DNA of 64,000 nucleotides from an uncultured virus (IMG/VR IMGVR_UViG_3300029922_000037) (lineage: Duplodnaviria; Heunggongvirae; Uroviricota; Caudoviricetes), in the IMG/VR virus record IMGVR_UViG_3300029922_000037; one strand, given 5' to 3'. This document shows, in pieces, positions 20-27,804 of this stretch. Every line of letters starts with the position of its first letter. Within the stretch, counting starts at the first letter, position 1. The translations under genes and the position numbers were made by a program. The notes beneath the pieces are model-generated. The model had not been told where the DNA came from. It saw only the letters and a program-made list of their open reading frames with translations, and ran no database searches.

Positions 20-1140
20 TTGAACATCCCCACGGATAAATCCGGGGGATTCCGGTCGGAGTTATGCGACATGGCGTAACTCCTGATTCGCGGCACATCC
101 CATGCCGGACAAGAGGGTGTTTACGGCAGCATTTACGTCTCTGTCGTGGCGGACTCCACATCCACATTCCCAATGTCTTACTGATAGTCCTGCCCATCCT
201 TGCGGCCCGGTTAAAGCTCCGCATGACGAACAAGTCCTAGTGGAATTACGGGAAACGACTTCGATGTATTGAGTACCGCTTTGAATGCTCTTGTAACTCA
301 ACATTGACCGAAGTTGAGCATGCCCACTGCTGGATACGCTCTTCCCAAACTTCTTTGCTATCCCCTTGATGTTGTCCTTCGAGAAAACGATCAAGGTATT
401 CTCTTGCACCAGTCGCAGCGATAGCTTGTGATTCCTGTCTTTGCGCTGGTTCTTGATGCGCTCATGCAATCTCGCTACCTGCTTGCGATTGAGGCCGCGC
501 TGTGCCTGTCCTAGGCGATCTAGCGAGGCTTGCAACTCCTTCGGGTGCGGTACCTTCTCGCCGTCAGAAGTGGTGATTAAATCTTTAAAGCCGGGGTCTA
601 TCCCGATCATGCCGTCCGCCGTGCGCTGGATAGGTTTGCGCTCCGCATCAATGAACAGGCACAGATACCAGCCGGAAGCGCGCTTGATGATGCGTCCGCA
701 CTTGATCTTGCCTTTCGGTATGTCCTGCTTATGGAAGCGCAACAACCCGATACCGGGCAGTTTGATGTGGTTTCCTTCCTGCGACTTTATGGGGTCAGGG
801 AACGGGATTGAATTGAGTTTGTTGCGCATTCCTTTTAGCTTCGGCTTTCCGCCGATCTTTTTGAAGCATCTTGACCATGCCGTGTGAACCTGCGCCAACA
901 TGCCCTGTACTGTGTGACTCGGTATGTCGATCTTCTTCCCGTGGTCGGCAAGGATATTCTGAAAGACCATGCCGGTATAGTAAATCCCATCCTTCGCATC
1001 AAGTTCGATCTTGCGCACGGCGAAATTATGAACCGCAGTCAAAGACCACAGCCAATCGTTAAGCTGCGCTTCTTTATTGGCGCTTAACCTGAGTTTTACT
1101 TGTGCCTGAATCATGCTGATTTTTGCTGTCTCACACTCTG
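20..1140 (-). mobile_element. IS200/IS605-family element, tnpA-deleted derivative (tnpB only)
   Basis: Right-end hairpin CCCCGGATTTATCCGTGGGG followed by ATGTTCAA. The left end CAGAGTGTGAG follows TTGAA, as in the copy at 14515-16085, but is joined directly to the last codons of tnpA. Confidence 0.85.
62..1114 (-). CDS. tnpB: TnpB RNA-guided nuclease family protein (atypical RuvC-II)
   Basis: GIDPG (RuvC-I), CSSC..CGC zinc ribbon, HDRDVNAAVN (RuvC-III); differs from 14556-15608 at 3 aa. Confidence 0.95.
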   Translation of the reverse strand: MIQAQVKLRLSANKEAQLNDWLWSLTAVHNFAVRKIELDAKDGIYYTGMVFQNILADHGKKIDIPSHTVQGMLAQVHTAWSRCFKKIGGKPKLKGMRNKLNSIPFPDPIKSQEGNHIKLPGIGLLRFHKQDIPKGKIKCGRIIKRASGWYLCLFIDAERKPIQRTADGMIGIDPGFKDLITTSDGEKVPHPKELQASLDRLGQAQRGLNRKQVARLHERIKNQRKDRNHKLSLRLVQENTLIVFSKDNIKGIAKKFGKSVSSSGHAQLRSMLSYKSIQSGTQYIEVVSRNSTRTCSSCGALTGPQGWAGLSVRHWECGCGVRHDRDVNAAVNTLLSGMGCAANQELRHVA

Positions 1141-4229: not shown

Positions 4230-5161
4230 AAGCACCACTCCCGCGTGATCTCGGCGCCGAGATAACGACGTTCGTAACTGTCAATCCTGGCGCCACATGC
4301 GATCATATGGCGGACCATTTCGACATCGAACTCGATGTCGCCTATACGATGCTGGTCGATCTCGTCGACCTCAAGCAGATTTGCAGTGCAATCACGCGGC
4401 AGGATGGCAAGACCATCACTGTCTACCGAGCGCCTGGGGCCGAACTGCCGACGATATTCGAGAAAGCGCTGGCAAGCGCTGAAGTCGCCGCCGGTGGCCA
4501 GCCGCAGACTGCAGAGCAAAAGGCGATTGCGTTCATTACCGCCAACGGCGGCAGCGCCACCAGCGACGAACTCGCGCATGTCCTTGGCCTCAAGCCAGGG
4601 CAGTTCCCGTCGACATGGCTGGCCGGCGCGATCAAAGGCGGCAGGATCAACAAGAACAGCCGCCAGTGGTCGCTTGGCGCTGGATCAGCGCCGGCACCGC
4701 TGAAGCCGTTGGTGTTCAATCCCGCTATCAGCACGCGCGCGGTTGACGCAGCGCCGGAGCCTGCACCGCACGTGCCCGCAACCGACGACGATTACAAAAA
4801 AGACTACAAGGAATTCACGGGTTTGGACTGGCCGACCGAGGACTTGCCCGCACCGACGACGACTGCGCGCGAACTCACTGACACTCGCATGCAGGTCGAG
4901 TGGAGTCTCGGCGATGCCACGTACATTATCACGGCGCCGACAGCTGAGGATATTGCACATGTTGAGTCGCTACTTCATGGCGACAAGCAGGCGGCTGCAT
5001 CCGGTCCGCTGCGCATCGCTGCGGCATCGTTTGCGATCTGGAGTAGCGGCGAACTCCACATCGCCGATGGCGATCGCACCGTCGCAACGCTGTCGCGCGA
5101 ACAGGTCGTTGAGATGCTGGACTATCTCAGCGTGTTTGATGTTGCCAGGGGTAAAAAGTGA
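4226..5161 (+). CDS. hypothetical protein with probable winged-helix domains
   Basis: Two HTH-like segments (NPGATCDHMADHF; GSATSDELAHVLG). Confidence 0.65.
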   Translation: MKAPLPRDLGAEITTFVTVNPGATCDHMADHFDIELDVAYTMLVDLVDLKQICSAITRQDGKTITVYRAPGAELPTIFEKALASAEVAAGGQPQTAEQKAIAFITANGGSATSDELAHVLGLKPGQFPSTWLAGAIKGGRINKNSRQWSLGAGSAPAPLKPLVFNPAISTRAVDAAPEPAPHVPATDDDYKKDYKEFTGLDWPTEDLPAPTTTARELTDTRMQVEWSLGDATYIITAPTAEDIAHVESLLHGDKQAAASGPLRIAAASFAIWSSGELHIADGDRTVATLSREQVVEMLDYLSVFDVARGKK

Positions 5162-5340
5162 ATACTGCCGTAGCCGACAACCAAATCCAGCGCGAGGTCG
5201 AATCCTGCGCGCGCGACCTGGTGATAGCCGCGAACAAGCTCGGGCTCGTGGTCACCATCTCGCAGCGGCCTTTCCCGCCGCTCGCCATGGGGAATTATGA
5301 GAGCGTTGTCGAGGTGCGGGAACGGTTGGTGCGGGGATGA
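5158..5340 (+). CDS. hypothetical protein
   Basis: 4-nt overlaps with both neighbours. Confidence 0.6.
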   Translation: MNTAVADNQIQREVESCARDLVIAANKLGLVVTISQRPFPPLAMGNYESVVEVRERLVRG

Positions 5341-7148
5341 CCGTTACGATCATGGTTGGCGATGTCCGCGAGCAGTTGCGCAAGTTGCCCGATAACTCAG
5401 TGCATTGCGTCGTGAGCAGCCCGCCATATTGGGGATTGCGCGATTATGGCGTCGATGGCCAGCTCGGACTTGAAGCAACGCCGGCGGAATTCATCGCCAC
5501 GATGGTGGCGGTGTTCGAGGAAGTGCGTCGTGTGTTGCGGCCGGACGGCACTTGCTTTATCAACATGGGTGATTCTTACTGGTCAGGTGCTCAACGTGCA
5601 GCCTCTTGTGGCACCTCCGGCAAAGTACCTGCAGATTCGATAGATCATGGTTGTCTTTGCGGAAATCTTTGTGATGGGTGTCGCAAGGCGTCTCGCATTG
5701 GCAAATTTCACACCGGTTCTCGGCTCGCTGCCATGCCAGAGCCTTTGCAGTCCGAGTCCAGCCGCGGGCATACGGTATCTGTGACCGACCGTTTTCCCAC
5801 ATTGGATTCGTCTCTCCAGGCTGCCCACACCGAAGCCGCCATTCTGGGTCAGCCAAGTTCTTCTGGGCTCGCAGACGTGCCGCTTCGCGCCGCTCCGGCG
5901 TCCACCAATCAAGGATTTTCTTTGCCACCTCCGGCTTCGTGCTTGCCGATACAACGCCGGGCCGACGAATGCCTTTCGTGCGGGTGCTCATTGCCTGATT
6001 GCGATCCGGAGTTCTCTCATACGGTGGCGTGCAATTTTTGCATAGCCGAGCGCGCGTCGGTGTCTGGCACTGTGGGCAAGGATGCTTTGGGCTTGGCATC
6101 CGGACATTCTACCAGTGCGGCCCTGAAACCGAAAGACCTTGTGATGATGCCGCACCGACTGGCGATCGCGCTACAGGACGCCGGCTGGTGGGTTCGTCAA
6201 GACATCGTTTGGTCGAAACCCAATCCCATGCCAGAAAGCGTCACTGACCGCTGCACCAAGTCGCACGAATACATTTTCTTTCTGACGAAAAGTGCGAAGT
6301 ATTACTACGATGCCGAAGCGATTAAGGAACCGGCGCAAACATGGTCTGGGCAAGCAGCAGTGTTTGATCGCACTGGGCCTGTATCTGAGCATGTCTTACC
6401 AGGGCAATCGGCTGCGCAACATCGGCAAAGACTCCCCGGTAATGTCAACCCGCCGAAAGGCCAAGTAGCTTACGAAAATGGTGATGACAGTCACCGGACA
6501 AAGGCAGGATTACTGGCCTATGCTGAAAAGCAGCGCTCCATAAAAATCAAGGTTCCAGGAGGATGGGATACTGATGCTGGAGCCCACGGAACGATTCACC
6601 GCGAAGGCCGCAACGAAGCAGAATATAAGGAATATGTGCCGTCAGAAAAACGCAACAAGCGCAGCGTCTGGACGATGGCAACCCACTCGTTCAAGGATGC
6701 GCATTTTGCCACCTTCCCGCCGGAATTACCGGAGACGTGCATCAAAGCCGGATCAAGCCAGCATGGCGCATGCTCTGTTTGTGGAACTCCATGGCGACGA
6801 GATACTGAATCGACATTTGTCCCACAGAGTGATGTCAGCGAAGAAAAAGGCGTGCGTGGCGCTGGCGATCAAAAGCCTTTGGATGCATCAAACCACAGAG
6901 ATGGTTTCCCGCGTGGAAATACCAATGTCGAAACGATTGGTTGGTCGCAAGCATGTAAATGTGTTGGCGCGCATGTGGTACCGTGTACCGTACTCGATCC
7001 ATTTTTCGGCGCCGGCACCACCGGGCTGGTTGCCGATCGGCTGCAGCGCCATTGCATAGGAATCGAACTTAATCCGGCCTACGCCGAGATGGCGCGCAAG
7101 CGCATTCTCTCCGAATCAACATTATTTGCTGACATCATCATGGCGTGA
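5337..7148 (+). CDS. N4-cytosine/N6-adenine DNA methyltransferase (beta class) with a ~180-aa insertion
   Basis: SSPPYWGLRDY (motif IV), NMGDSY, LKPKDL, WSKPNPMPES, HFATFP, VLDPFFGAGTTG (motif I), GIELN. Confidence 0.93.
   Translation: MTVTIMVGDVREQLRKLPDNSVHCVVSSPPYWGLRDYGVDGQLGLEATPAEFIATMVAVFEEVRRVLRPDGTCFINMGDSYWSGAQRAASCGTSGKVPADSIDHGCLCGNLCDGCRKASRIGKFHTGSRLAAMPEPLQSESSRGHTVSVTDRFPTLDSSLQAAHTEAAILGQPSSSGLADVPLRAAPASTNQGFSLPPPASCLPIQRRADECLSCGCSLPDCDPEFSHTVACNFCIAERASVSGTVGKDALGLASGHSTSAALKPKDLVMMPHRLAIALQDAGWWVRQDIVWSKPNPMPESVTDRCTKSHEYIFFLTKSAKYYYDAEAIKEPAQTWSGQAAVFDRTGPVSEHVLPGQSAAQHRQRLPGNVNPPKGQVAYENGDDSHRTKAGLLAYAEKQRSIKIKVPGGWDTDAGAHGTIHREGRNEAEYKEYVPSEKRNKRSVWTMATHSFKDAHFATFPPELPETCIKAGSSQHGACSVCGTPWRRDTESTFVPQSDVSEEKGVRGAGDQKPLDASNHRDGFPRGNTNVETIGWSQACKCVGAHVVPCTVLDPFFGAGTTGLVADRLQRHCIGIELNPAYAEMARKRILSESTLFADIIMA
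5560..6099 (-). CDS. HNH endonuclease nested antisense within the methyltransferase
   Basis: RCEICQ...THHKDFRKDNHDLSNLQVLCRRCHKRLH is a complete Zn-HNH motif; NPMWENG linker motif; N-terminal CPQC/CKNC. Confidence 0.88.
   Translation of the reverse strand: MPSPKHPCPQCQTPTRARLCKNCTPPYERTPDRNQAMSTRTKGIRRPGVVSASTKPEVAKKILDWWTPERREAARLRAQKNLADPEWRLRCGQPGETNPMWENGRSQIPYARGWTRTAKALAWQRAENRCEICQCETPCDTHHKDFRKDNHDLSNLQVLCRRCHKRLHVEHLTSKNHPC
6100..6114 (-). promoter_or_regulatory. extended -10 leaderless promoter for the HNH gene
   Basis: TGG-TAGAAT-gtccgg-ATG. Confidence 0.6.
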
Positions 7149-7157
7149 TATCAGAAT
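7144..7157 (+). promoter_or_regulatory. CGTGAY-N3-A-N3-T promoter motif
   Basis: CGTGATatcAgaaT, 6 nt before ATG 7164. Confidence 0.55.
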
Positions 7158-7163
7158 ATAATC

Positions 7164-7406
7164 ATGAGCGAATTCAAACCCATAGATACCCTAGCCGATC
7201 TGGCGCGTCAGGACTTGGTATGCGGTGACATCGAGGCAGGCTACATCGCTGGCGTCTACGGCGCGCCGGAACCGATTGCCAGCACGTTCTCGCGTGCGTT
7301 CTGGCACGGCTGGCGCAATGGCCGTGTCGATGGCGCGCACGATGACCCCGATGAATACCATGCCAGGCTGGCAGCAGCCTATTCCGAACCACAATGGCTT
7401 CACTGA
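7164..7406 (+). CDS. hypothetical protein
   Basis: ORF directly after the promoter motif; SRAFWHGWRNG. Confidence 0.7.
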   Translation: MSEFKPIDTLADLARQDLVCGDIEAGYIAGVYGAPEPIASTFSRAFWHGWRNGRVDGAHDDPDEYHARLAAAYSEPQWLH

Positions 7407-7413
7407 GGACAAT

Positions 7414-7668
7414 ATGACCACCACCACCAACGCCGTCACCGTATCCGCCTTTTTCGATGCCATCCTGACGCGCACAGGCGTGAAAAATGATCGTGCGCTG
7501 GCGCGCCTGATCGACATCGATCCCTGCAGCCTGTCGAATATGCGTGCCGGCCGCGCCGGCATGGGTCCAGTGATCCTGCTGCGCGTGCATGAGGCAACGG
7601 AAATATCCATTGCCGAATTGAAGCGTATGGCAGGCTGGCCGCCGGCGCGGGCGTTCAGCCGTGGATGA
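7414..7668 (+). CDS. HTH (CI/Cro-like) DNA-binding protein
   Basis: GAGG RBS; KNDRALARLIDIDPCSLSNMRAG. Confidence 0.7.
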   Translation: MTTTTNAVTVSAFFDAILTRTGVKNDRALARLIDIDPCSLSNMRAGRAGMGPVILLRVHEATEISIAELKRMAGWPPARAFSRG

Positions 7669-9447: not shown

Positions 9448-10098
9448 ATGAGCGCGCCGAAAAATGCGGAAAAGTTGGCGGTAAAGATTGCAATCAGTGA
9501 ACACCTGAAACTGTATGGTCCGCGGGAATGGCCTGATTTTTTCGACAAATATCCAAATGTTTCAAAAGCGTCGATGTGGCGCTGGATCAAAGAGGTCAAA
9601 GACGATCTGGAGCGCGCCACCATCGACGGCGGCATGGACCTGAAGTTGATGCAGAAGCGGATTCGGTCGAACGCCAGCCCAGAACGATCTTCCCGAGAAC
9701 TCAAAAAGCATATCCCAGTCGCGCCATCGCCAGCCGGGCTGGTCGGTCTCGGTTCCGAGAATGTTGGCGAAGTATTCATATTCCTTGAGCAATTCAACGA
9801 ACTCGTGCGCGACATGAAAATGCTGCGCAAGCACTCCGTCGAGTTGCAGGCGGACGGTGAAGAAAAGATCAAGAACCCGATGCTGTTCGACCGCAGTCTT
9901 GGGCGGCGCCTGGAATTGCTTGAAACCTGGCTGCACTCGCAGGATATGGTTTGGAACCTGGAGCGCATGCAAGAACTTTACATGATGATAATAGAAGAGG
10001 TCGGCAAGGTCGACGCCGATACCCAGCAGGCGATACTCTCGCGCATCCGCACGCTCAACAACAAGCGCGGGCTCACCATTGACGCGAGGTTGTACTGA
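9448..10098 (+). CDS. probable terminase small subunit
   Basis: N-terminal HTH (VSKASMWRWIKE), helical, coupled to terL. Confidence 0.6.
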   Translation: MSAPKNAEKLAVKIAISEHLKLYGPREWPDFFDKYPNVSKASMWRWIKEVKDDLERATIDGGMDLKLMQKRIRSNASPERSSRELKKHIPVAPSPAGLVGLGSENVGEVFIFLEQFNELVRDMKMLRKHSVELQADGEEKIKNPMLFDRSLGRRLELLETWLHSQDMVWNLERMQELYMMIIEEVGKVDADTQQAILSRIRTLNNKRGLTIDARLY

Positions 10099-12152
10099 TG
10101 GGGCGCGTCGCAAAAGTGAAGCGGTTCGATCCGGCGGCGTCGCTGGACGAGTTGATATCCAGGTTGGAGGTTCATACTGGATACAAAGTACCCAGCACCA
10201 CCGTTATCCCAGATGGCATGGGTTTCCGGGAATGGTGCGGCGGCCTCGCGCACGATGGCCTGAAGGTCGACGGAAAACCGTTTCGTCTTGATAACCGACC
10301 CGCCATGGCATGGGTCTACGACCAGATCCCCACCACCGCCGATGAGGCGTACCGTTATATTCTTGTCATCATGAAGTGCGCCCAGGTCGGTTTCACCGTG
10401 ATGGAGATCCTGGCCGCTTTGTACCTCGGGCTCAAGTTTGGGCCCTGCACCGTCGGCATGTTCCTGCCCGACATGAATCTTGCTGGCATCAAGTCGACCG
10501 AGCGCTTCATGCCGATCGTGCGCAGTATACCCTCGGTTCATGCCATGATGCGCCAGGATGCTGCGGACGGCAGCGGGCGCAAGGCCGGCGAGGGCAATGT
10601 CACCAAGCGGCGGCTCAACGATGCCCTCTATGTTTTCAGCTGGACGAGTGGTCGCGCCACGACGGAGTCCATCCCGATGGACGTCCTCAACTTCGACGAG
10701 GTCCAGGAGATGACACTGGACCAGATCGAGAAGACGTACGAACGGCTCAGCGCGTCTGAAGTGCGGTTCATGTTGATGGGAAGCACGGCCAATTGGCCAG
10801 AGAGTGACATCCACCACTGGTATCTGCGCGGCAGCCAACACCGGTTCCATACGTCTTGCCAAACATGCGGTACCGCGCGGCCGCTGGACGATTATTTCCC
10901 TGCTTGCATCAAGTTCGATACGGGACAGGACCGCTACCGGTATGTCTGCCAGAACGGCCATTGGATCGATGACCCGCAGATCGGGGAATGGCGCGCTGAT
11001 GCGCCGCACCAGGACAAGACACTCGAGCTGGAAGTATCCAAAATAAACCGGCGCCAGCGCATCCGATCGCTTCACTTCCCGCAATTCCTGTCGCCGACGA
11101 TCAGCCCGGACGAAATTATCACCTCGTACGGCAGCGCGACCGACATGAAGAATTTCTTCAATCGCAAGCTGGGCAAGCCATTTCTAGATCCGTCGCAGGT
11201 TCCCGTCACGCTGGAGCACTGCGCTGCGTGCGTGGCCGCCGGCGCGCTGATCGGCTTGATGTGGAAGACGCGCGCGCGCAACACGTACATGGGCATCGAT
11301 CAGATGGGCCAGTACAACGTGCATGTCATCAAGGAGCGGCTTCCTGACGGTCGACAGGCTGTTGTGCATGTCGAGGAAACCTACAGCGAAGATCCTTTCG
11401 CGCGATCGAGCGAGTTGATGGAGTTGTACGGCGTGTCGGTCTGCGTGGTCGAAATAAATCCGAACTACAACGAGGCAAAGAGGTTCGCGAACCGGCACCG
11501 TGGCAAGGTCTTCATCTGCAATAGCTTCGGCGCCATTGAAGAGGGGATGATCCAGTGGGGCGACGCGCCCAAGTTGGATGTCTCTGACCGGCGCACAACC
11601 GAAGAGGACCGCGATCGCTACACGCTCAAGATGGACCAATACAAGTGCATGCAGGTCAGCATGGCTCGCATCACCGGTGCGCTATGCCTATTCCCGGATC
11701 CGCAGGGGCTTGTGCAAGAGGTTTTGAAAGACGGGAAGAAACAACTTGCGGCGGTGCTGCCGCGCGTCTTCGCGCACTTCACAAAAACAGCCCTGGTCGC
11801 CGAAAAGGACGATGAAACAAACCGCTTCAAGCGCTCAGTCAAAAAGATAGGTATCGATCCCCATTTCAGCTACGCCAACATGCTGTGTGACGTCGCCTGG
11901 GCGCGCTCACATGGCACGTCTACTTTCCTTATCCCGCAAATGGAAGAAAAAAAGGACCACGTCGTGAAAACTGAGAACATGGGACTTGGAATAATTTCAG
12001 AGACACTAGCTGAGATAAAGGCTGATGCAAATCTGCATCAGCGCTGTGGTGGCTGCACATCGTTTGACCCGGTCGACGGAATGTGCATGGAGAGATGGTT
12101 TAAGGTTCGTGAGCAGGATGCTGGCTGCGCTATCTGGGTAGCTAAGGCTTAG
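10098..12152 (+). CDS. terL: terminase large subunit (GpA-like)
   Basis: MKCAQVGFT Walker A variant, NFDEVQ Walker B, CQTC zinc motif, YMGIDQ nuclease motif. Confidence 0.88.
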   Translation: MGRVAKVKRFDPAASLDELISRLEVHTGYKVPSTTVIPDGMGFREWCGGLAHDGLKVDGKPFRLDNRPAMAWVYDQIPTTADEAYRYILVIMKCAQVGFTVMEILAALYLGLKFGPCTVGMFLPDMNLAGIKSTERFMPIVRSIPSVHAMMRQDAADGSGRKAGEGNVTKRRLNDALYVFSWTSGRATTESIPMDVLNFDEVQEMTLDQIEKTYERLSASEVRFMLMGSTANWPESDIHHWYLRGSQHRFHTSCQTCGTARPLDDYFPACIKFDTGQDRYRYVCQNGHWIDDPQIGEWRADAPHQDKTLELEVSKINRRQRIRSLHFPQFLSPTISPDEIITSYGSATDMKNFFNRKLGKPFLDPSQVPVTLEHCAACVAAGALIGLMWKTRARNTYMGIDQMGQYNVHVIKERLPDGRQAVVHVEETYSEDPFARSSELMELYGVSVCVVEINPNYNEAKRFANRHRGKVFICNSFGAIEEGMIQWGDAPKLDVSDRRTTEEDRDRYTLKMDQYKCMQVSMARITGALCLFPDPQGLVQEVLKDGKKQLAAVLPRVFAHFTKTALVAEKDDETNRFKRSVKKIGIDPHFSYANMLCDVAWARSHGTSTFLIPQMEEKKDHVVKTENMGLGIISETLAEIKADANLHQRCGGCTSFDPVDGMCMERWFKVREQDAGCAIWVAKA

Positions 12153-12418: not shown

Positions 12419-14503
12419 TCATGGTGTTTCCTTTGTTAAGAATTGTTGAATTCTCTGTCCTATGAAAAGCATGCATGGCACCGCCATCGAGTTTCCCAAT
12501 GCCTTGTACCGTGGACCATCGGCTGCCAGCAACCAGTAGTCTCCGTTGATCAGCGTCATCTCTTCTTGGCGGTCGGCGTCAATTAATTCTTGCGCGCGCT
12601 TGACTGAGAGTTTTCTGATTGGGATGTTGGTGTATCCATCTGAGAATCCCTGCAGTCGCTCGCATTCCGTTGGCGTTATTCTGCGCACTGCATAGGATTG
12701 CTGCATGCACTGCACCTCTTGGCGCGCTTCCAGCGTGTAGGCGCAGTCTGTTTGAACACCTACGCCACCTGGGCCGCTGTTGGGATTGGTGCGCAGAGCA
12801 CCGGCTTGGATAGCGTGCGTTATCACCATTGGCGTACCTTGACCTGGTTTTCCGCCGCCGCTATTAAGGCATCCAGTCCGATCACCGTTACCACCTTCAA
12901 GTCGCAGTTCGCCTCGGCTGTTTTCGGCGAACGCCACAGCTAATTGGCCGCCGCCATTAGCATGACTCCCATCATGCCCCATACTCCGTAGTGTCGGCGC
13001 CATCTCAACGGTCGCGTCGCGACCGTTGTCTTTGCAAGAGAACGCGATCATTGGTGCACCGCCGCTAGCGCTATCTGAATTCGTCCCAAGCGTACCCGAG
13101 ATATCGCCTACGTAAAGATTTGATCCTCTGGTTTGGAATGCGATCGTCGACTCGCACGCGTCATCGCACTCCATGCTGCTGCAATCAGGGCAAGTCGGAT
13201 TGCGGTCGTAGTCGTCAATTCCGTATTGGCGTCCGCATTGATGGCAAGTGAAGCGCTGGATGCGGATGCTAGGTATTGGTGCCAACACATGGGCCTTGTC
13301 ACCACCACCACCACCACCACCACCACCACCACCACCACGTAGACAAGTGGCGACATCATCACCGAGTTCGGCCGTTGCGCCGCCTTCGCGGCCACGGAGG
13401 GCGACGGATAGCGCCATCGGTATCAGCATGCCAGACTCGGCATCCTGCTGCGTCGCACTTCCAGCCGCTTTGCCGTTGGCCTGAAGCGTCCCTGCAACTA
13501 TATTTTCTTGGACAATGAACGTTTCCGTATCAAAATCGTTCCTAGTCTTGGTGCTGGTGCTGGTGCTGGTGCTGGTGCTGAGCGGTCCGCTTGTGTTGCC
13601 ACCGCCGAAGGCGACGGGCACGCACATTGCTGGCGATGTACCAGCACCGCGAGTTCTACCTGCCGCTGCGTCAATAGTGCCGGCGCAGAGTTGCAAGTGC
13701 CAAGCTAACGCATGATCTAAGTCAGCCCCGCCATCGCTATTTCTCAGCGTTCCGGTAATGCAGCCCCCCCCGAGTTCAAAGTCGGTTCCAAGTCCACCAC
13801 CGCCTGTAGTGCGGCTGCTAATTGTGCCGGTAACTTCTTGCCCCGTTTTTCTGCTCGGCGGATGATCCCGGCGCATGCCATCGCGCTCAAAAAGTATTTC
13901 TGTGGGATCGAACTCTTTTCGAGCACTTGCGACAACGAACACACGCTCGCGTCGTTGGGCCACGCCGAAATATTGTGCATCGCAGATCCGCCAAGCGATT
14001 GAGCGGACGGGTCCAAACACACAACCAGCGTTCGACCATTTTCCCCCTGGCGCTGTGAGCGGCCGATCTTCGCCGGCAAGCGCTCCCAGAAAGCAGCCGA
14101 AGGCGTTGTCTGCTGTACTGAGGACTCCGGGCACATTTTCCCAGACAACGATAGCGGGAGGCTTCCCCCGAACAAGTCTTGATTCATCGATGGTATCCGC
14201 AAGTTTTACAAAGGCAAGTGTGAGTTGGCCACGCGCATCTTCCATGCTACCGCGCAGACCCGCGATCGAGAATGCCTGACATGGCGTTCCTCCAACAAGT
14301 ACATCTGGCGCTTCGACTTCGCCAGCGCGCACTCGCGCTGCGATGGCTGTCATATCTCCCAGATTCGGCACGTCCGGATAGTGATGCGCAAGCACGGCAG
14401 ATGGGAATTTCTCGATTTCTGCAAACCAATCTGCTTCCCACCCAAGAGGATGCCATGCGCACGTAGCTGCCTCGATGCCGCTACACACCGACCCGTATCT
14501 CAT
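12419..14503 (-). CDS. C5-cytosine DNA methyltransferase with a long modular variable region
   Basis: YGSVCSGIEA (I), GGTPCQAFS (IV), WENVPG (VI), QRRERVF (VIII), RRITPTECERLQGF (IX), YKALGNS (X); start at MRYGS 14503. Confidence 0.93.
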   Translation of the reverse strand: MRYGSVCSGIEAATCAWHPLGWEADWFAEIEKFPSAVLAHHYPDVPNLGDMTAIAARVRAGEVEAPDVLVGGTPCQAFSIAGLRGSMEDARGQLTLAFVKLADTIDESRLVRGKPPAIVVWENVPGVLSTADNAFGCFLGALAGEDRPLTAPGGKWSNAGCVFGPVRSIAWRICDAQYFGVAQRRERVFVVASARKEFDPTEILFERDGMRRDHPPSRKTGQEVTGTISSRTTGGGGLGTDFELGGGCITGTLRNSDGGADLDHALAWHLQLCAGTIDAAAGRTRGAGTSPAMCVPVAFGGGNTSGPLSTSTSTSTSTKTRNDFDTETFIVQENIVAGTLQANGKAAGSATQQDAESGMLIPMALSVALRGREGGATAELGDDVATCLRGGGGGGGGGGGGDKAHVLAPIPSIRIQRFTCHQCGRQYGIDDYDRNPTCPDCSSMECDDACESTIAFQTRGSNLYVGDISGTLGTNSDSASGGAPMIAFSCKDNGRDATVEMAPTLRSMGHDGSHANGGGQLAVAFAENSRGELRLEGGNGDRTGCLNSGGGKPGQGTPMVITHAIQAGALRTNPNSGPGGVGVQTDCAYTLEARQEVQCMQQSYAVRRITPTECERLQGFSDGYTNIPIRKLSVKRAQELIDADRQEEMTLINGDYWLLAADGPRYKALGNSMAVPCMLFIGQRIQQFLTKETP
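13301..13336 (-). repeat. (GGT)12 simple sequence repeat encoding poly-Gly
   Basis: Perfect trinucleotide run. Confidence 0.95.
13550..13579 (-). repeat. (AGCACC)5 repeat encoding (Ser-Thr)5
   Basis: Perfect hexanucleotide run. Confidence 0.95.
13744..14187 (-). CDS. alternative-frame nested ORF, M.EcoHK31I beta-subunit-like
   Basis: SLSGKMCPESS...WPNDASVCSLSQVLE...KYFLS..AC.GIIRRAEKRGKKLP. Confidence 0.65.
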   Translation of the reverse strand: MNQDLFGGSLPLSLSGKMCPESSVQQTTPSAAFWERLPAKIGRSQRQGENGRTLVVCLDPSAQSLGGSAMHNISAWPNDASVCSLSQVLEKSSIPQKYFLSAMACAGIIRRAEKRGKKLPAQLAAALQAVVDLEPTLNSGGAALPER

Positions 14504-14555
14504 GCAGCCGCCAGTTGAACCTCCCCACGGATAAATCCGGGGATTCCGGTCGGAG

Positions 14556-15608
14556 TTATGCGACATTGCGTAACTCCTGATTCGCGGCACATCCCATGCC
14601 GGACAAGAGGGTGTTTACGGCAGCATTTACGTCTCTGTCGTGGCGGACTCCACATCCACATTCCCAATGTCTTACTGATAGTCCTGCCCATCCTTGCGGC
14701 CCGGTTAAAGCTCCGCATGACGAACAAGTCCTAGTGGAATTACGGGAAACGACTTCGATGTATTGAGTACCGCTTTGAATGCTCTTGTAACTCAACATTG
14801 ACCGAAGTTGAGCATGCCCACTGCTGGATACGCTCTTCCCAAACTTCTTTGCTATCCCCTTGATGTTGTCCTTCGAGAAAACGATCAAGGTATTCTCTTG
14901 CACCAGTCGCAGCGATAGCTTGTGATTCCTGTCTTTGCGCTGGTTCTTGATGCGCTCATGCAATCTCGCTACCTGCTTGCGATTGAGGCCGCGCTGTGCC
15001 TGTCCTAGGCGATCTAGCGAGGCTTGCAACTCCTTCGGGTGCGGTACCTTCTCGCCGTCAGAAGTGGTGATTAAATCTTTAAAGCCGGGGTCTATCCCGA
15101 TCATGCCGTCCGCCGTGCGCTGGATAGGTTTGCGCTCCGCATCAATGAACAGGCACAGATACCAGCCGGAAGCGCGCTTGATGATGCGTCCGCACTTGAT
15201 CTTGCCTTTCGGTATGTCCTGCTTATGGAAGCGCAACAACCCGATACCGGGCAGTTTGATGTGGTTTCCTTCCTGCGACTTTATGGGGTCAGGGAACGGG
15301 ATTGAATTGAGTTTGTTGCGCATTCCTTTTAGCTTCGGCTTTCCGCCGATCTTTTTGAAGCATCTTGACCATGCCGTGTGAACCTGCGCCAACATGCCCT
15401 GTACCGTGTGACTCGGTATGTCGATCTTCTTCCCGTGGTCGGCAAGGATATTCTGAAAGTCCATGCCGGTATAGTAAATCCCATCCTTCGCATCAAGTTC
15501 GATCTTGCGCACGGCGAAATTATGAACCGCAGTCAAAGACCACAGCCAATCGTTAAGCTGCACTTCTTTATTGGCGCTTAACCTGAGTTTTACTTGTGCC
15601 TGAATCAT
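14556..15608 (-). CDS. tnpB: TnpB RNA-guided nuclease family protein (atypical RuvC-II)
   Basis: Same motifs as 62-1114. Confidence 0.95.
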   Translation of the reverse strand: MIQAQVKLRLSANKEVQLNDWLWSLTAVHNFAVRKIELDAKDGIYYTGMDFQNILADHGKKIDIPSHTVQGMLAQVHTAWSRCFKKIGGKPKLKGMRNKLNSIPFPDPIKSQEGNHIKLPGIGLLRFHKQDIPKGKIKCGRIIKRASGWYLCLFIDAERKPIQRTADGMIGIDPGFKDLITTSDGEKVPHPKELQASLDRLGQAQRGLNRKQVARLHERIKNQRKDRNHKLSLRLVQENTLIVFSKDNIKGIAKKFGKSVSSSGHAQLRSMLSYKSIQSGTQYIEVVSRNSTRTCSSCGALTGPQGWAGLSVRHWECGCGVRHDRDVNAAVNTLLSGMGCAANQELRNVA

Positions 15609-16000
15609 GCTGATTTTTGCTGTTCGATGTACTGCTTGATAATCGCCAATGGCGCACCACCTACAGTCGCTACAAAATATGAGTTAGTCCACAGCGTGGG
15701 CAGTCTGGATTTAAGGCTTTTGAACTCTTGGCGAAGAAGCCTTGACGACCTCCCTTTGATGCGCTTTACCAGCCGATGAATCCCGAATTGAGGGTCAACC
15801 TCGACAAGCAAATGAATGTGATCCGGCATCGTTTCCATTTCGATTATTCCCGCCCCAAGCTCACCGCACACCTCGCGGACAATCTGCTTTAACCGCAACT
15901 CAATATCACCAACGATCACGCTGCGCCGATATTTCGGACACCACACAACATGATACTTGCTCGAAAAAACGATGTTGTTATTTGACTTGAACTTATCCAT
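15605..16000 (-). CDS. tnpA: IS200/IS605 Y1 transposase
   Basis: YHVVWCPKYRR, PDHIHLL (HUH), LWTNSYF, KQYIEQQ (catalytic Tyr). Confidence 0.97.
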   Translation of the reverse strand: MDKFKSNNNIVFSSKYHVVWCPKYRRSVIVGDIELRLKQIVREVCGELGAGIIEMETMPDHIHLLVEVDPQFGIHRLVKRIKGRSSRLLRQEFKSLKSRLPTLWTNSYFVATVGGAPLAIIKQYIEQQKSA

Positions 16001-16061
16001 GCCGACAATATACAGGTTATAGCAAAATAGTCAAGAGCAATCGCTCACCCCATAGATAAAT

Positions 16062-16538
16062 CTAGGGGATTGCGCTCACACTCTGTTCAAAAACCACGCC
16101 ATCGTCAATGCGCTGGCGTATCTCGGCAATGGCCGCACGCAAGTCAGCCCGCGTTGCATTCTCAATCTGCGCTTCATGGATCTCGAATGCGCGCTTGATG
16201 GCGGTCATGGCGGCGCCGTCGTATCCCCATGCCCCAGTGCGTTGCGCCCGCACGCGGGCACGGAACGCACCTTCGAGCGCTGCGTTGATGTCGTCAACGA
16301 AGTGTTGGCCAAATCCGCGCTCTGCCAGGATCAGCGCGATATTGAGCGCGACCGTACACGTCGACCACTGCTGCTCATCGGCGTGGCCGGTGATCATGAG
16401 GTCGAAGGCGATGCGGAATGCGATCGAGAGATCGGCGATCTGATCATCTGCCAACGGAACCGCGTTCTCGCGCGCACGCTGGAATGATGCAGTGCGCTGG
16501 GCGGCTTTGTTGGGGTTGTAGGGTTTGCGTTTGCTCAT
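16062..16538 (-). CDS. hypothetical phage protein; last codons replaced by the IS left end
   Basis: Start MSKRKPY overlaps the upstream stop. Confidence 0.75.
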   Translation of the reverse strand: MSKRKPYNPNKAAQRTASFQRARENAVPLADDQIADLSIAFRIAFDLMITGHADEQQWSTCTVALNIALILAERGFGQHFVDDINAALEGAFRARVRAQRTGAWGYDGAAMTAIKRAFEIHEAQIENATRADLRAAIAEIRQRIDDGVVFEQSVSAIP

Positions 16539-16867
16539 GAATTTGCTACCTCCAACAGCACATCGGCATGGCACAATTCGCCGACCTTACACCAGCATGC
16601 AAGATTCTTACCGCGAAGTTCAGTTTTTGCCAAGGCCGCAATTTCTTTACCGCGTTCGTTCAGTTCAAGCCAGTAGCGATAGCATTCAACGGCATCCTCA
16701 ATGGTCGGTACTGCGATATAATTTGGACCGACCATTGTCCCAACTGCCTGCAACGGCGCCACGCTAAATGGATTTCCCCATTGCGATGGCCGTGTCACGC
16801 AGACTGTATTCGGCGGTAATATCCAGCCTTTTGACCGTTTTCTTTGAGTTCTGATCGGTGTATTCAT
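16535..16867 (-). CDS. DUF4326 family protein
   Basis: VTRPSQWGNPF...LRGKNLACWC....CHADVLLE. Confidence 0.9.
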   Translation of the reverse strand: MNTPIRTQRKRSKGWILPPNTVCVTRPSQWGNPFSVAPLQAVGTMVGPNYIAVPTIEDAVECYRYWLELNERGKEIAALAKTELRGKNLACWCKVGELCHADVLLEVANS

Positions 16868-16908
16868 GCCATCAATATTAACCTAAATTGATTATTTTGT
16901 GCTGGAAT

Positions 16909-16922
16909 CGTGACACTATATT
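16909..16922 (+). promoter_or_regulatory. CGTGAY-N3-A-N3-T promoter motif
   Basis: CGTGACactAtatT, 6 nt before ATG 16929. Confidence 0.55.
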
Positions 16923-16928
16923 TGATGA

Positions 16929-17138
16929 ATGGACGCCATCGAAGCATTACGCCTCATCGCCGAACTCGACAAACCGCTCGAAGCGACTTCGCCTAACGAC
17001 TGGCGGCGGCGTGTGCAGTTGATTGCGCGGATTGCACTTGGGGTAACAGAGAGTCCAATTGCATACGGGCGAGTTGAAGACGCAGGTCAACAATCTCCGC
17101 TTCCGCCTTCTCCAAATTGTCATGCAGCTTGTGATTGA
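16929..17138 (+). CDS. small protein antisense to the leftward operon
   Basis: Promoter motif at exact leaderless spacing. Confidence 0.45.
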   Translation: MDAIEALRLIAELDKPLEATSPNDWRRRVQLIARIALGVTESPIAYGRVEDAGQQSPLPPSPNCHAACD

Positions 17139-17214
17139 TCTTCATCTGGACTGAGAGCATTGCCTCGGCGTCGATGGCGCGCTTCTCCAGCGCTTGTTGC
17201 GTTGTGGTGTTCAT
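16993..17214 (-). CDS. coiled-coil hypothetical protein
   Basis: ATGA-coupled to the upstream ORF. Confidence 0.55.
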   Translation of the reverse strand: MNTTTQQALEKRAIDAEAMLSVQMKINHKLHDNLEKAEAEIVDLRLQLARMQLDSLLPQVQSAQSTAHAAASR

Positions 17215-17579
17215 CGCTGTACCCGGATCGGGATTCCTTTCAGTTGGTGTTCGTACATGGCGCAGAGGGGATCGCTTTTAGCTTCATACACTCGACAAGT
17301 TTCTGGCCGGTTCTCGTAATCTGTGCAGCGGCCGTCGGCGCCAAGCCGTTCGCAATCGAATTGCACTAAAGTTTTACCTTCTGGCGGATATGAAGACAAT
17401 TGTTCGACAAGTGGGCGGACTGGTTTGAAATAATACAGTCCATACAATTCCATGAAGTTTTCAGCTTCAATTTTCCAGTTATCGATATTGAAATGCTTAC
17501 CTCCAATTGTGAATCCGCTGCAGCACGCGCCAGGGTGGGTGCATGTGTCACAGGTACTCATGCCGGTATCCATTCCCAT
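17211..17579 (-). CDS. YkgJ-like cysteine-cluster protein
   Basis: CDTC..PGACC...C..L..DGRCTDYENRPETCR. Confidence 0.8.
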   Translation of the reverse strand: MGMDTGMSTCDTCTHPGACCSGFTIGGKHFNIDNWKIEAENFMELYGLYYFKPVRPLVEQLSSYPPEGKTLVQFDCERLGADGRCTDYENRPETCRVYEAKSDPLCAMYEHQLKGIPIRVQR

Positions 17580-17721
17580 TGAGGTTGCCCAAGCCGCATG
17601 ATGACCTTGCCGTCGGGACCGCAGAGTGGGCGTTTGCGATGCAGGACACCGCGCACCAGCATCGTGTTTGGCGTGAGTTTGCGCGCACGCGGCCCAGTGT
17701 GCGGCGGCGGGTGTTTGGCGT

Positions 17722-17925
17722 TTATGTCATCCATTGATCTGGAAACCTTATCGTAAATGGTTGTTCTGGTTCAAAATTAATGCACCATGTTGGTCTAGCT
17801 TCAGAAATGCTTATATCACGCAACATCGCGCCGGAAATCAAGAATTCTTCTATTTGCTTCTCAATCAGCATTGCATGCTCAAGCAAAGCGGATTCATACT
17901 GTCTCCAGATGGTGCCTGATATCAT
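17722..17925 (-). CDS. hypothetical protein
   Basis: Coupled ORF in the operon. Confidence 0.45.
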   Translation of the reverse strand: MISGTIWRQYESALLEHAMLIEKQIEEFLISGAMLRDISISEARPTWCINFEPEQPFTIRFPDQWMT

Positions 17926-18167
17926 ACCTGCACATCATCATCATAAAACCCGCGCACGACATTGCGAGGCACGAATCGCGCCGTGGCGATCTCGGCCGCA
18001 CGTTCGCGCATAGCGGCTTCGCGCTGCAACTCATCGGCCGCCGATTCTGCCTGCGCTTTGGTGTCGCAGTCGACCAGCGGTACAAAAATTCGCGTGCCAG
18101 GACGCACGTAGCCGGCGTAATAGCCGCCTTTTTTGTGACCTGGGCCGATAGCGATGAAGTCGAGCAC
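17922..18167 (-). CDS. hypothetical protein
   Basis: GTG start just after the upstream stop. Confidence 0.5.
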   Translation of the reverse strand: MLDFIAIGPGHKKGGYYAGYVRPGTRIFVPLVDCDTKAQAESAADELQREAAMRERAAEIATARFVPRNVVRGFYDDDVQV

Positions 18168-18169
18168 GG

Positions 18170-18481
18170 TTATTCCAACTCGGCGATGGTGCAAGAAATC
18201 GGTTCGTCGTCGCCATTTTCCAGCATGCATGTTCCGGCATCCTGGTCGACCGTCAGCACCTTGTGCGCGCGCTGATCACCAGGCCAGATCACCTCGGCGC
18301 CGGCTTGCAATTCCGCTCTCCAATTCGGGTTACCACGCATAATCGTTCCTTTCGGTACATCGTTGTAATATCGCCATGGCCGACACCGTAGTGTCACCCA
18401 GCCGGCGCGGCCGACCAGGACGCCTTCGAGATATTCCTCACGGTGGCCGGTGCGCTGGTTGTCGTAGATGCCGTTGAGCAT
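18170..18481 (-). CDS. hypothetical protein
   Basis: Start MLNGIY; operon packing. Confidence 0.5.
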   Translation of the reverse strand: MLNGIYDNQRTGHREEYLEGVLVGRAGWVTLRCRPWRYYNDVPKGTIMRGNPNWRAELQAGAEVIWPGDQRAHKVLTVDQDAGTCMLENGDDEPISCTIAELE

Positions 18482-18635
18482 GGCTATTTGCTGGAGAAAT
18501 CGTACGGGTCGATTTCGTCTTTGTCGAGATACTTGGCGCGCTTGATAGCCAGTCGCCAAATGATCTCGCTGCAAAAATATCCGGCCAAAAATGCGATCGC
18601 TCCATACGCCATGAAGATCAGTTTCCCGCTGTCCA

Positions 18636-19375: not shown

Positions 19376-19400
19376 CGATACACCTCCATAGGTATTAATC

Positions 19401-19429
19401 AATTTTAATCAATCAATCAAATAAAAGCA
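19401..19429 (-). promoter_or_regulatory. sigma70-like promoter of the leftward accessory operon
   Basis: TTGCTT-N17-TAAAAT. Confidence 0.6.
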
Positions 19430-19447
19430 ACATAAAAATGAGGTCGT

Positions 19448-19461: not shown

Positions 19462-19467
19462 AGCACC

Positions 19468-27775: not shown

Positions 27776-27804
27776 GTCAGAATCCCAATCTGACGGCCAC
27801 TGCG

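What the first reader, a model, noticed from the sequence alone, without database searches (positions are those of the whole stretch)
5337..7148. Intact HNH endonuclease gene hidden antisense inside an uninterrupted DNA methyltransferase ORF
Seen: the methylase linker between NMGDSY and LKPKDL is about 180 aa of motif-less Ser/Cys/Ala-rich sequence. The opposite strand of exactly that stretch (5560-6099) encodes a complete HNH nuclease (CEIC...HHKD...N...NLQVLCRRCH..H, NPMWENG, N-terminal zinc finger). It has its own extended -10 (TGG TAGAAT) 6 nt from its ATG. The methylase frame has no stop across the insert, the two frames are not codon-aligned, and there is no intein signature (no Cys1...HN/C) or obvious intron. 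Known: homing endonucleases usually spare their host gene through intron or intein splicing, and this linker is short and variable in beta-class phage methylases. Inference: either a splicing-free homing strategy in which the invader is tolerated as an antisense-encoded loop, or a very compact nuclease-plus-methylase module on two strands of one locus.
Basis: partly seen in the sequence, partly recalled or inferred. Interest (0 to 1): 0.9.

Follow-up and report, generated by a model that had tools for sequence, protein, structure and literature searches.

The report
Backwards HNH gene inside phage methylase
A small selfish-looking nuclease gene with its own promoter lies backwards inside a phage DNA-methylase gene, and stop codons have been kept out of the methylase reading frame, so the enzyme appears to be translated straight through it without splicing.

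Summary
The + ORF 5337-7148 (603 aa) is a PF01555 DNA methylase. Its 181-aa linker carries, on the opposite strand, an intact 179-aa zinc-ribbon/HNH endonuclease gene (5560-6099). An extended -10 box (TGGTAGAAT, 6106-6114) lies 6 nt before the HNH ATG.

The layout is not chance. Among 92 non-redundant HNH relatives taken from raw contigs, 81 sit antisense at the same methylase site and in the same frame relation. These show 0 host-frame stops in 13,756 codons, against 296.5 expected from synonymous-codon shuffling. Relatives that split the methylase or stand free carry stops at the expected rate.

Substitutions concentrate at HNH codon position 3, so the HNH is the protein under selection and the sense peptide is only kept stop-free. 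AlphaFold models that peptide as a low-confidence loop. The insert is scattered across the methylase tree, which suggests mobility. No intron or intein signal was found.

The closest published thing is the same-strand 'ShiLan domain' hidden HNH (Genes 2025, PMC11855218). The antisense, self-promoted form is a new variant, and I found no paper on it. This scan has already noted the same kind on other genomes. Expression, read-through and homing are inferred, not shown.

The parts
5337..7148 (+). DNA methyltransferase ORF, 603 aa, beta-class N6/N4 type, uninterrupted
   Evidence: ORF. PF01555 E 9.1e-43. phrog_67 E 2e-70. AF2 core pLDDT >90.
5337..5579 (+). Methylase N-terminal core, with SPPY at aa 28-31 and ending in the conserved NMGDSY (5562-5579)
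   Evidence: Invariant columns S28 P29 P30 Y31 N76 G78 D79. pLDDT 87-98 for aa 1-80.
5580..6122 (+). Linker plus insert as read in the methylase frame (aa 82-262). It is Ser/Cys/Ala-rich, has no family match, and is modelled as a low-confidence loop.
   Evidence: Insert-free alleles have 34-55 aa here. pLDDT is mostly <50 for aa 89-260. Host-frame position 2 is the most variable position. No stop in 81 of 92 related clusters.
5560..6099 (-). HNH endonuclease gene, 179 aa. ATG at 6099-6097 and stop at 5562-5560. The last 8 codons and the stop overlap the host motif INMGDSYWSG.
   Evidence: ORF and sequence. 71 homologues. phrog_333/119/1271 HNH. AF2 pLDDT 84. Codon position 3 is the most variable.
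6031..6078 (-). N-terminal zinc ribbon of the HNH protein (C8, C11, C20, C23)
   Evidence: Invariant in 30 of 30 aligned homologues.
5596..5712 (-). HNH catalytic core (aa 130-168: CEIC..DTHHKD..N..NLQVLCRRCHKRLH)
   Evidence: Invariant C130 C133 H142 H143 N155 C160 C163. PF01844 stretch 130-169. The best Foldseek rows include solved HNH nucleases, alongside unrelated folds, all at E about 0.1.
6106..6114 (-). Extended -10 promoter box TGGTAGAAT, 6 nt upstream of the HNH ATG. It predicts a leaderless or near-leaderless transcript starting at about 6099.
   Evidence: Sequence. The same box at the same spacing in relatives. At most 1 mismatch at 4-8 nt from the ATG in 21 of 35 and 11 of 44 representatives, against 0.10% of 15,260 control positions.
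6123..7148 (+). Methylase C-terminal core: LKPKDL, NPMPES, HFATFP, target-recognition region, and motif I LDPFFGAGTTG
   Evidence: Invariant columns K264 K266 D267 N296 M298 P299 H456 F457 A458 D554 F556 G558. pLDDT >90 in the conserved blocks.

Best explanation
A mobile, homing-type HNH endonuclease cassette has inserted backwards into the variable surface linker of a tailed-phage N6/N4 DNA methylase gene. The cassette consists of its own extended -10 promoter, a start codon placed for a leaderless mRNA, and a 179-aa zinc-ribbon/NUMOD-like/HNH protein. The insertion site lies between the conserved NMGDSY and LKPKDL motifs.

Because the cassette is antisense, its own start and stop codons are invisible to the host frame. 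Only three codon-pair types in the HNH (NTT, NTC or NCT followed by a codon starting with A) would create a host stop. Selection has removed all of them.

The methylase is therefore translated straight through about 175 extra residues of otherwise unconstrained sequence. These residues form a disordered loop that leaves the catalytic core intact. No RNA or protein splicing is needed. The HNH is made from the opposite strand and probably cuts or nicks insert-free alleles, so that repair copies the cassette.

What is shown here: the anatomy, stop avoidance, which frame is under protein-level selection, promoter conservation, sporadic distribution, and intact host domains. What is inferred: transcription, the full-length protein, tolerated activity, and homing.
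For: (1) Of 92 non-redundant HNH relatives with a match of at least 120 aa, 81 sit antisense in a methylase frame that has no stop. The relatives were found by tblastn on raw contigs, independent of gene calls. Of the 81, 70 have both flanks in the same frame, 9 have one flank visible, and 2 have an anomalous N flank.

(2) The synonymous-codon shuffle gives 0 host-frame stops in 13,756 codons against 296.5 expected. The window alone expects 3.3, with P(0)=0.016.

(3) Natural controls from the same family behave as expected. Six split-host relatives have 27 stops against about 25 expected. Free-standing relatives have 12/13.7, 12/14.1, 6/5.8 and 4/6.0 observed/expected.

(4) Mean pairwise difference at HNH codon positions 1/2/3 is 0.40/0.41/0.63. 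The HNH frame is therefore the conserved protein, and host-frame position 2 is the freest.

(5) The AF2 model of the HNH has pLDDT 84. The same DNA read in the host frame has pLDDT mostly <50 between cores of >90.

(6) The box TGGTANAAT ends 4-8 nt before the ATG in 32 of 79 representatives at 1 mismatch or fewer, against 0.10% of control positions. The other representatives mostly have GGAG 7-11 nt upstream plus a box further up.

(7) In the methylase tree of 147 rows, built with the insert columns removed, the insert label needs 12 changes, at least 5 of them forced by starred branches. The window's methylase lies in a 99* clade of 90 rows of which 89 lack the insert. HNH identity and methylase identity are nearly uncorrelated (Spearman 0.12).

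(8) All 55 complete host ORFs score 61-179 bits on PF01555, and none has a Hint/intein family.

(9) Rfam finds no intron in the window at E<=10 or in 20 related loci at gathering score.
Against: - No expression data: no RNA run holds the stretch.
- No cultured phage in the GenBank phage collection carries a relative (0 hits at E<=1e-5; best 33% over 59% at E<=1). Nothing has been tested at the bench.
- No insert-free copy of this same phage was found. The nearest held record, G001, ends at the IS copy at window 14568, and no contig skips the insert.
- The cleavage target is unknown, and the left boundary of the insert is not fixed between loci.
- Degenerate HNH copies are rare. One deletion derivative, L014, was seen. 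This is unusual for a purely selfish homing gene and leaves room for a useful role.
- The Pfam HNH score of the window protein is below the curated cut-off, and Foldseek E-values are only about 0.1.
- The methylase-tree test used FastTree, and its insert-free rows were chosen as the best hits of the window's own methylase.
Confidence: 0.72

Rival explanations
1. The pair is a compact two-strand nuclease-plus-methylase module kept for its use to the phage. It would act like a restriction-modification or addiction pair, or as a weapon against unmethylated competitor or host DNA. The methylase would protect the phage's own DNA from the HNH, and antisense transcription would tune methylase level. 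Homing would be secondary or absent.
For: - The HNH is intact in essentially all embedded loci, with one deletion derivative seen.
- The pairing is old: there are two deep embedded clades, one of them at 100*.
- Relatives that left the nested state still sit beside other methylase genes (L185, L170).
- The promoter is conserved.
Against: - The insert is sporadic among close methylase relatives. Of the 120 best hits, 113 lack it, as do 89 of the 90 rows in the window's clade. A useful fixed partner would not show this pattern.
- HNH and methylase histories are uncoupled.
- The protein architecture (zinc ribbon plus NUMOD3-type repeats; PF07460 precomputed in 3 of 71 homologues) is, from recall, that of homing enzymes.
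Confidence: 0.15
2. The insert is removed after transcription or translation by a splicing element of an unrecognised kind, so the mature methylase lacks it.
For: The absence of a match in Rfam or Pfam does not exclude an undescribed ribozyme or intein-like element. The insert sits at a conserved site, as introns and inteins do.
Against: - An intron would not need a stop-free host frame, yet 0 stops are seen against 296.5 expected.
- Protein splicing would need conserved residues in the host frame, but that frame's position 2 is the most variable. There is no Cys/Ser..HN boundary.
- No Hint family in the window or in any of 55 host ORFs.
- No intron family.
Confidence: 0.06
3. The methylase is a dead or dying host gene, and the open frame is chance or recent. 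Alternatively, the antisense HNH ORF is a phantom of a real sense-strand domain.
For: Long antisense ORFs are common in G+C-rich DNA. The codon-aligned antisense frame is open in some relatives (L016, L083).
Against: - Stop avoidance across 80 lineages, while the other two antisense frames carry 1-15 stops.
- 55 of 55 host ORFs keep PF01555.
- The HNH frame shows the coding pattern, folds with confidence, and has free-standing relatives.
Confidence: 0.02

Closest known systems
ShiLan domain / 'hidden HNH' insertion in mycobacteriophage DNA methylases (Arsenault, Gosselin, Gogarten 2025, Genes 16:178, PMC11855218; earlier Gosselin et al. 2023, PMC9957025, which I saw only as a reference)
   Same: - A homing-type HNH gene lies inside a phage DNA methylase gene.
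- The host frame stays free of stops across the insertion.
- No intron or intein is detectable.
- Distribution among related methylases is disjunct.
- The insert is predicted as a poorly structured loop.
- The HNH has flanking zinc fingers.
(I read the abstract and sections 1.2, 1.3, 3.6 and 4.)
   Different: - In ShiLan the HNH lies on the same strand, in the third frame. It has a GTG start 18 bp into the insert and no promoter or RBS of its own, and how it is translated is an open question in that paper.
- Here the HNH lies on the opposite strand with its own conserved extended -10 promoter.
- The paper has 0 occurrences of antisense, reverse, opposite strand, complement or promoter.
- The HNH proteins are not detectably alike: tblastn of the phage collection at E<=1 gave no Mycobacterium phage. 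I did not verify that phage ShiLan is in that collection.
- The host clade, the methylase subfamily and the site differ.
Homing endonuclease genes carried in self-splicing group I introns or inteins, including antisense HEGs inside nuclear group I introns (PMC9548176, search listing and abstract only)
   Same: A site-specific nuclease gene lives inside a conserved host gene without destroying it. It shows sporadic distribution, and an antisense orientation is known in some introns.
   Different: Those elements spare the host by RNA or protein splicing. Here no splicing element is found, and the host frame itself is kept open.
Free-standing homing endonuclease that splits a host gene into two ORFs ('genes in pieces'; mobE in Aeromonas phage Aeh1 nrdA, recalled and not checked here)
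   Same: One clade of this same HNH family (L016, L039, L083, L202, L207, L190) sits at the same methylase site with the N and C parts in different frames. In L016 and L202, the two loci read in full, these parts are separate ORFs.
   Different: In the window and in 81 of 92 clusters the host gene is not split but is read through.
Type II restriction-modification pairs
   Same: A nuclease and a DNA methylase are encoded at one locus.
   Different: There is no evidence that the two share a target. The nuclease gene is nested antisense inside the methylase gene and is sporadic among close methylase relatives.

Membership tests
N6_N4 DNA methyltransferase (PF01555, beta class) | Profile match above the curated cut-off, with motif IV (SPPY) N-terminal and motif I (FxGxG) C-terminal | tested here: met
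   147 bits against a cut-off of 26.7. SPPY is at aa 28-31 and DPFFGAGTTG at aa 554-563.
HNH endonuclease (PF01844 and phage HNH families) | Profile match above the curated cut-off | tested here: inconclusive
   Pfam gives 16.7 bits, below the 21.4 cut-off. PHROG HNH families match at E 3.5e-9, 1.2e-7 and 6.1e-6. 5 of 71 homologues carry a precomputed PF01844.
HNH endonuclease (PF01844 and phage HNH families) | beta-beta-alpha-metal core with conserved His, Asn, His and a CxxC..CxxC zinc site | tested here: met
   Invariant C130 C133 H142 H143 N155 C160 C163, and nearly invariant H164 H168, in 30 sequences. The AF2 model has strand-strand-helix at 139-176 with pLDDT about 90. The best Foldseek rows include HNH nucleases (5h0m, Cap5, McrA), mixed with unrelated folds (T4CC, DotN), and all are weak at E about 0.1.
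Homing endonuclease gene (functional class) | Sporadic presence at one conserved site of a host gene, incongruent with host-gene phylogeny | tested here: met
   In the embedded loci read, the insert always lies between N(L/M)G(D/S)SY and KPKDL. The label needs 12 changes on the methylase tree, at least 5 of them forced. Spearman 0.12.
Homing endonuclease gene (functional class) | Site-specific cleavage or nicking of the insert-free allele, and copying of the element into it | not testable with these tools
   No bench data. No insert-free copy of the same phage was found.
ShiLan-type hidden HNH insertion | Insertion in a phage DNA methylase whose host frame stays stop-free, without intron or intein | tested here: met
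   Definition taken from PMC11855218.
ShiLan-type hidden HNH insertion | HNH encoded in an alternate frame of the same strand as the methylase | tested here: not met
   The HNH is on the opposite strand in the window and in all 81 embedded clusters.
ShiLan-type hidden HNH insertion | Sequence relatedness to the ShiLan HNH | tested here: inconclusive
   No Mycobacterium phage appears among 83 records at E<=1. I did not confirm that the ShiLan record is in the collection.
Intein | Hint-domain splicing blocks with a nucleophile at the first residue and His-Asn plus a nucleophile at the end, conserved in the host frame | tested here: not met
   No Hint or intein family in the window protein or in 55 host ORFs. 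The host-frame residues are not conserved as such. The boundaries read ..WSGAQRAAS.. and ..STSAALKPKDL.
Group I / group II intron | Match to a ribozyme covariance model; the host frame need not be open | tested here: not met
   No intron family at E<=10 in 4800-7600. None at gathering score in 20 related loci. Stop avoidance is not expected of an intron.
Type II restriction-modification system | Nuclease and methylase recognise the same DNA sequence | not testable with these tools
   No specificity can be read from sequence here.

The most novel reading that the evidence does not exclude
The nested pair has become a mutually dependent two-strand module rather than a parasite and its host. The methylase mark would protect the phage's own DNA from its HNH. 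The HNH would attack unmethylated competitor phages or insert-free alleles. Convergent transcription from the conserved internal promoter would set the ratio of the two proteins. The roughly 540-nt antisense overlap would then be a long-lived dual-coding gene pair maintained by selection on both strands in more than 80 phage lineages.
Probability: 0.15. Interest if true: 0.85.

Novelty: new variant of a known kind. Interest (0 to 1): 0.65.

Why it matters
Homing endonuclease genes are thought to survive inside essential or useful genes by riding on introns or inteins. The 2025 ShiLan work proposed a third way: the host simply reads through the insertion. That work left open how the hidden nuclease is expressed.

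The antisense form answers that question by design. The nuclease has its own promoter and start codon on the other strand, and the host frame only has to avoid three codon-pair types.

The comparative signal here is 0 of 13,756 codons against about 297 expected stops, with same-family controls behaving as expected. This is unusually clean evidence that a long antisense gene overlap is maintained by selection. It also gives a simple, testable system for three questions: tolerated loop insertions in methyltransferases, leaderless expression, and homing without splicing.

On the practical side, gene callers annotate only the methylase, so this nuclease family goes unannotated in viral metagenomes.

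Tried and rejected
- RNA evidence: the look-up of sequencing runs listed 24 DNA holders (peat metagenomes) and no RNA holder. Expression therefore could not be examined.
- Read laying on X16, X20, X22 and X24 gave no joint that skips the insert and no insert-free variant. It served only to confirm the junctions.
- GenBank phages: no tblastn match of the HNH at E<=1e-5. At E<=1 there were only generic HNH hits.
- Own genome: the window's assembly is not held. The nearest record, G001, has no HNH match and no match to 4800-7600. This is because the contig ends at the IS copy, matching window 14568-20000 at 100%. It is not an insert-free allele.
- Foldseek of the HNH model gave no match at E<=0.001.
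- The strict regex count of methylase motifs in host ORFs undercounted variants (30 of 55 with all four motifs). It was replaced by the Pfam scan (55 of 55).
- The second methylase of the window (12419-14590) was checked for a nested antisense gene and has none.
- Literature: five full-text searches found the same-strand ShiLan papers but no description of an antisense, self-promoted HNH inside a read-through methylase.
- Not attempted: complex prediction, the search of protein representatives and the protein-atlas search.
Full report
**What is there.** The window is a tailed-phage contig. It encodes a terminase at 10098-12152, a portal, a major head protein at 42094-43608, a tail sheath at 48383-50113 and baseplate proteins. 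The + strand ORF 5337-7148 encodes a 603-aa protein that matches PF01555 N6_N4_Mtase (E 9.1e-43). SPPY lies near the N terminus and DPFFGAGTTG near the C terminus.

Between the conserved NMGDSY (5562-5579) and LKPKDL (6123-6140) motifs lie 181 residues with no family match. Twelve insert-free alleles have only 34-55 variable residues there.

On the - strand, 5560-6099 is a 179-aa ORF. Its Pfam HNH score is below the curated cut-off (16.7 against 21.4 bits). It does match three PHROG HNH families (best E 3.5e-9). It also has 71 homologues with an invariant CxxC..CxxC zinc ribbon, a WTPExREAAR-type repeat and the core CExC..DTHHKD..N..NLxVLCxxCH..H.

An AlphaFold model built on that alignment has mean pLDDT 84. 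Its best Foldseek rows include solved HNH nucleases, alongside unrelated folds, and all are weak at E about 0.1.

The last eight HNH codons and the stop overlap the host's INMGDSYWSG codons. On the - strand, TGGTAGAAT (6114-6106) is followed by 6 nt and then the ATG. AT skew changes sign inside the insert.

A contig from a run not flagged as the source spans 5519-6378 without a difference.

**Is the open host frame more than chance?** From the coordinates, HNH codon position 1 pairs with host position 1, position 2 with host position 3, and position 3 with host position 2. A host stop arises only where an HNH codon NTT, NTC or NCT is followed by a codon beginning with A.

I collected relatives of the HNH directly from DNA, independent of any gene call:
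- 80 kept of 153 in viral contigs;
- 7 in species-representative genomes;
- 80 kept of 218 in metagenome contigs.

I then located the window's HNH and the methylase N and C parts in these 167 loci by tblastn. Loci with an HNH match of at least 120 aa number 117, which form 92 clusters at 90% identity.
- In 79 clusters the HNH lies antisense between methylase N and C parts that share the frame predicted by the window's frame relation, with no stop across the HNH. Both flanks are seen in 70 and one flank in 9.
- Two more (L011, L025) are open, but their N flank hits another frame further upstream.
- Six have flanks in different frames, with stops.
- Four have no such flank (L015, L052, L061, L170).
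- One is too short to tell (L185).

Shuffling synonymous codons within each HNH ORF keeps both the protein and the codon counts. Under that shuffle the 81 embedded representatives show 0 host-frame stops in 13,756 codons, against 296.5 expected. One representative, L240, was mis-parsed and contributes no codons, so the effective number is 80. Its host frame is open over 587 aa.

The other two antisense frames carry 1-15 stops per locus.

The family has no intrinsic bias against these stops. The six split-host relatives have 27 stops against about 25 expected. The four relatives without a methylase flank have 12/13.7, 12/14.1, 6/5.8 and 4/6.0 observed/expected. L185, whose context is undetermined, has 1 against 5.7 expected and may be a recent escapee.

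**Which strand is the protein under selection?** I used a codon alignment of 35 embedded HNH ORFs, with 148 of 234 columns retained. The mean pairwise differences at HNH positions 1, 2 and 3 are 0.40, 0.41 and 0.63.

This is the signature of a protein-coding HNH. It also means that host-frame position 2 is the least constrained. The similarity seen between sense-frame insert peptides is therefore a by-product of HNH conservation.

AlphaFold on a 97-sequence alignment agrees. The methylase cores score above 90, while aa 89-260 score mostly below 50, apart from two short islands.

All 55 host ORFs bounded by stops on both sides match PF01555 at 61-179 bits. None matches an intein family. Rfam finds no intron in the window at E<=10 or in 20 related loci.

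An intron would not need an open frame. An intein would need conserved host-frame residues. Both kinds of splicing are therefore unlikely.

**Promoter.** Upstream of the HNH ATG, many relatives have the same extended -10 box at the same spacing.
- The strict pattern TGNTANNNT ends 4-8 nt before the ATG in 23 of 78 representatives, against 10 of 5,499 control windows.
- At most one mismatch to TGGTANAAT at that spacing is found in 21 of 35 representatives outside the second clade (a set that includes the window's group) and in 11 of 44 representatives of the second clade. The control rate is 0.10% of 15,260 positions.
- Most of the second clade instead has GGAG 7-11 nt before the ATG, with a similar box further upstream.

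This stretch lies outside the HNH ORF and is absent from insert-free alleles. Its conservation is therefore best read as a promoter. The conserved sense peptide AYPYST is its reverse translation.

With sigma-70 promoters, transcription usually starts about 7 nt after the -10 box (recalled knowledge). That would put the start on the A of the ATG, giving a leaderless mRNA. This is inference.

**Mobility.** Among the 120 best relatives of the window's methylase, only 7 carry the insert, including the window's own protein.

I built a FastTree of 147 methylases with the linker/insert removed, keeping 302 columns. The rows dropped were two proteins identical to loci, six loci with incomplete host ORFs, and duplicates. 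The insert label needs 12 changes, at least 5 of them forced by starred branches, against a shuffled mean of about 31. The window's methylase lies inside a 99* clade of 90 rows of which 89 lack the insert, and its nearest relative is 75% identical.

HNH identity and methylase-core identity are nearly uncorrelated in 29 loci (Spearman 0.12).

In the HNH tree of 91 representatives, the split-host group is one clade (97*). Three of the relatives outside a read-through methylase (L170, L015 and the undetermined L185) nest among embedded ones.

This pattern fits gain by homing and occasional loss or escape. There are caveats. The insert-free rows were chosen as neighbours of the window's methylase. 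The cleavage site is unknown. No insert-free copy of this same phage was found.

**What it most likely is.** It is a self-promoted, antisense homing-type HNH cassette that its host methylase reads through as a disordered loop (confidence 0.72).

The antisense orientation is a neat solution. The nuclease's own start and stop codons do not exist in the host frame, and only a few codon pairs must be avoided.

The main rival (0.15) is that the pair is kept as a useful nuclease-methylase module. The near absence of decayed HNH copies (one deletion derivative, L014) and the depth of the association leave this open.

**Comparison with what is known.** After my own analysis, a look-up of earlier notes of this scan showed that the same kind of thing had been reported on other genomes. 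Those notes pointed to the ShiLan domain.

I read that paper (PMC11855218: abstract and sections 1.2, 1.3, 3.6 and 4). It describes a 202-aa insertion in a mycobacteriophage methylase. The host frame is stop-free. A 195-aa HNH is hidden in the third frame of the same strand. No intron or intein is detectable, the distribution is disjunct, a loop is predicted, and how the HNH is translated is an open question. The words antisense, reverse, opposite strand, complement and promoter do not occur in it.

The present element shares the read-through principle. It fails the same-strand feature, has its own promoter, and is not detectably related in sequence.

Five literature searches found no description of the antisense form. 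Antisense endonuclease genes are known inside spliced group I introns (PMC9548176, listing only).

I therefore rate it a new variant of a known kind, already seen repeatedly by this scan.

**Limits.** Nothing here shows transcription, the 603-aa protein, methylase activity or nuclease activity. All relatives come from uncultured sequence. bioRxiv supplements and the ShiLan GitHub data were not seen.

Noticed in passing
L016:1481-4019, L202:1253-3495 (also L039, L083, L207, L190): One clade of the same HNH family (97*) sits at the same methylase site, but the methylase N and C parts lie in different frames. In L016 and L202 these parts are two separate ORFs. The N fragment ends in a conserved tail (..LRxDLTxxExAYVLxELAxCxxL*). 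The C fragment starts with M(K/E)LRLxQxxIPxHL(K/R)RFF(K/R)P. L016 has an extra 89-aa ORF (2728-2997) just upstream of the HNH. The conserved tails may let the two halves reassemble.
   Followed up: partly
L014:2867-3598: Deletion derivative. Only the C-terminal 82 aa of the HNH remain. The methylase frame runs from SPPY through half of the insert directly into the last ~30 residues (ELNPAYVEMSKRRI..), so most of the enzyme is lost.
   Followed up: partly
P0161 (676 aa), sister of insert-bearing P0076 at 99*: This methylase carries a different insertion at the same NLGSSY/KPKD site: a linker roughly 250 aa longer than in insert-free alleles. It is not similar to the antisense-HNH peptides.
   Followed up: no
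L170:2276-3570; L185:159-1394: Two HNH relatives (63% and 48% identical) lie outside a read-through methylase but next to other methylase genes. L170 overlaps the start of a fragment that ends in DPFMGAGTT.. and has 4 host-frame stops. L185 is convergent with a DPPY-type methylase and has only 1 stop where 5.7 are expected.
   Followed up: partly
window 62-1114 and 14556-15608 (both - strand): Two 350-aa transposase ORFs (phrog_506, E about 1e-68) bracket the 13-kb segment that holds the methylase and the terminase. Both give identical scores on two further transposase profiles. The nearest held virus record ends exactly at the second copy (match 14568-20000 at 100%). This suggests an assembly break at a repeated IS.
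   Followed up: partly
window 12419-14590 (-): A second methyltransferase (723 aa; best PHROG match phrog_116, DNA methyltransferase). It has long low-complexity inserts (a run of 13 Gly, STSTSTSTS) and a CxxC..CxxC stretch. No nested antisense gene was found in it.
   Followed up: partly
window 27763-33861 (+) and 35538-40124 (+): A 2032-aa ORF combines methyltransferase and helicase matches and resembles DarB-like antirestriction proteins (phrog_11801, phrog_10089). It is followed by a 1528-aa helicase.
   Followed up: no
window 5655-5696 and about 5964-5996 (+ frame, aa 107-120 and about 210-220): Two short Cys-rich stretches of the sense-frame insert (CLCGNLCDGCRK.., ECLSCGCSL) are modelled with pLDDT about 76-77, while the rest of the insert is below 50. 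They mirror conserved HNH codons. Whether they bind metal in the methylase is unknown.
   Followed up: no
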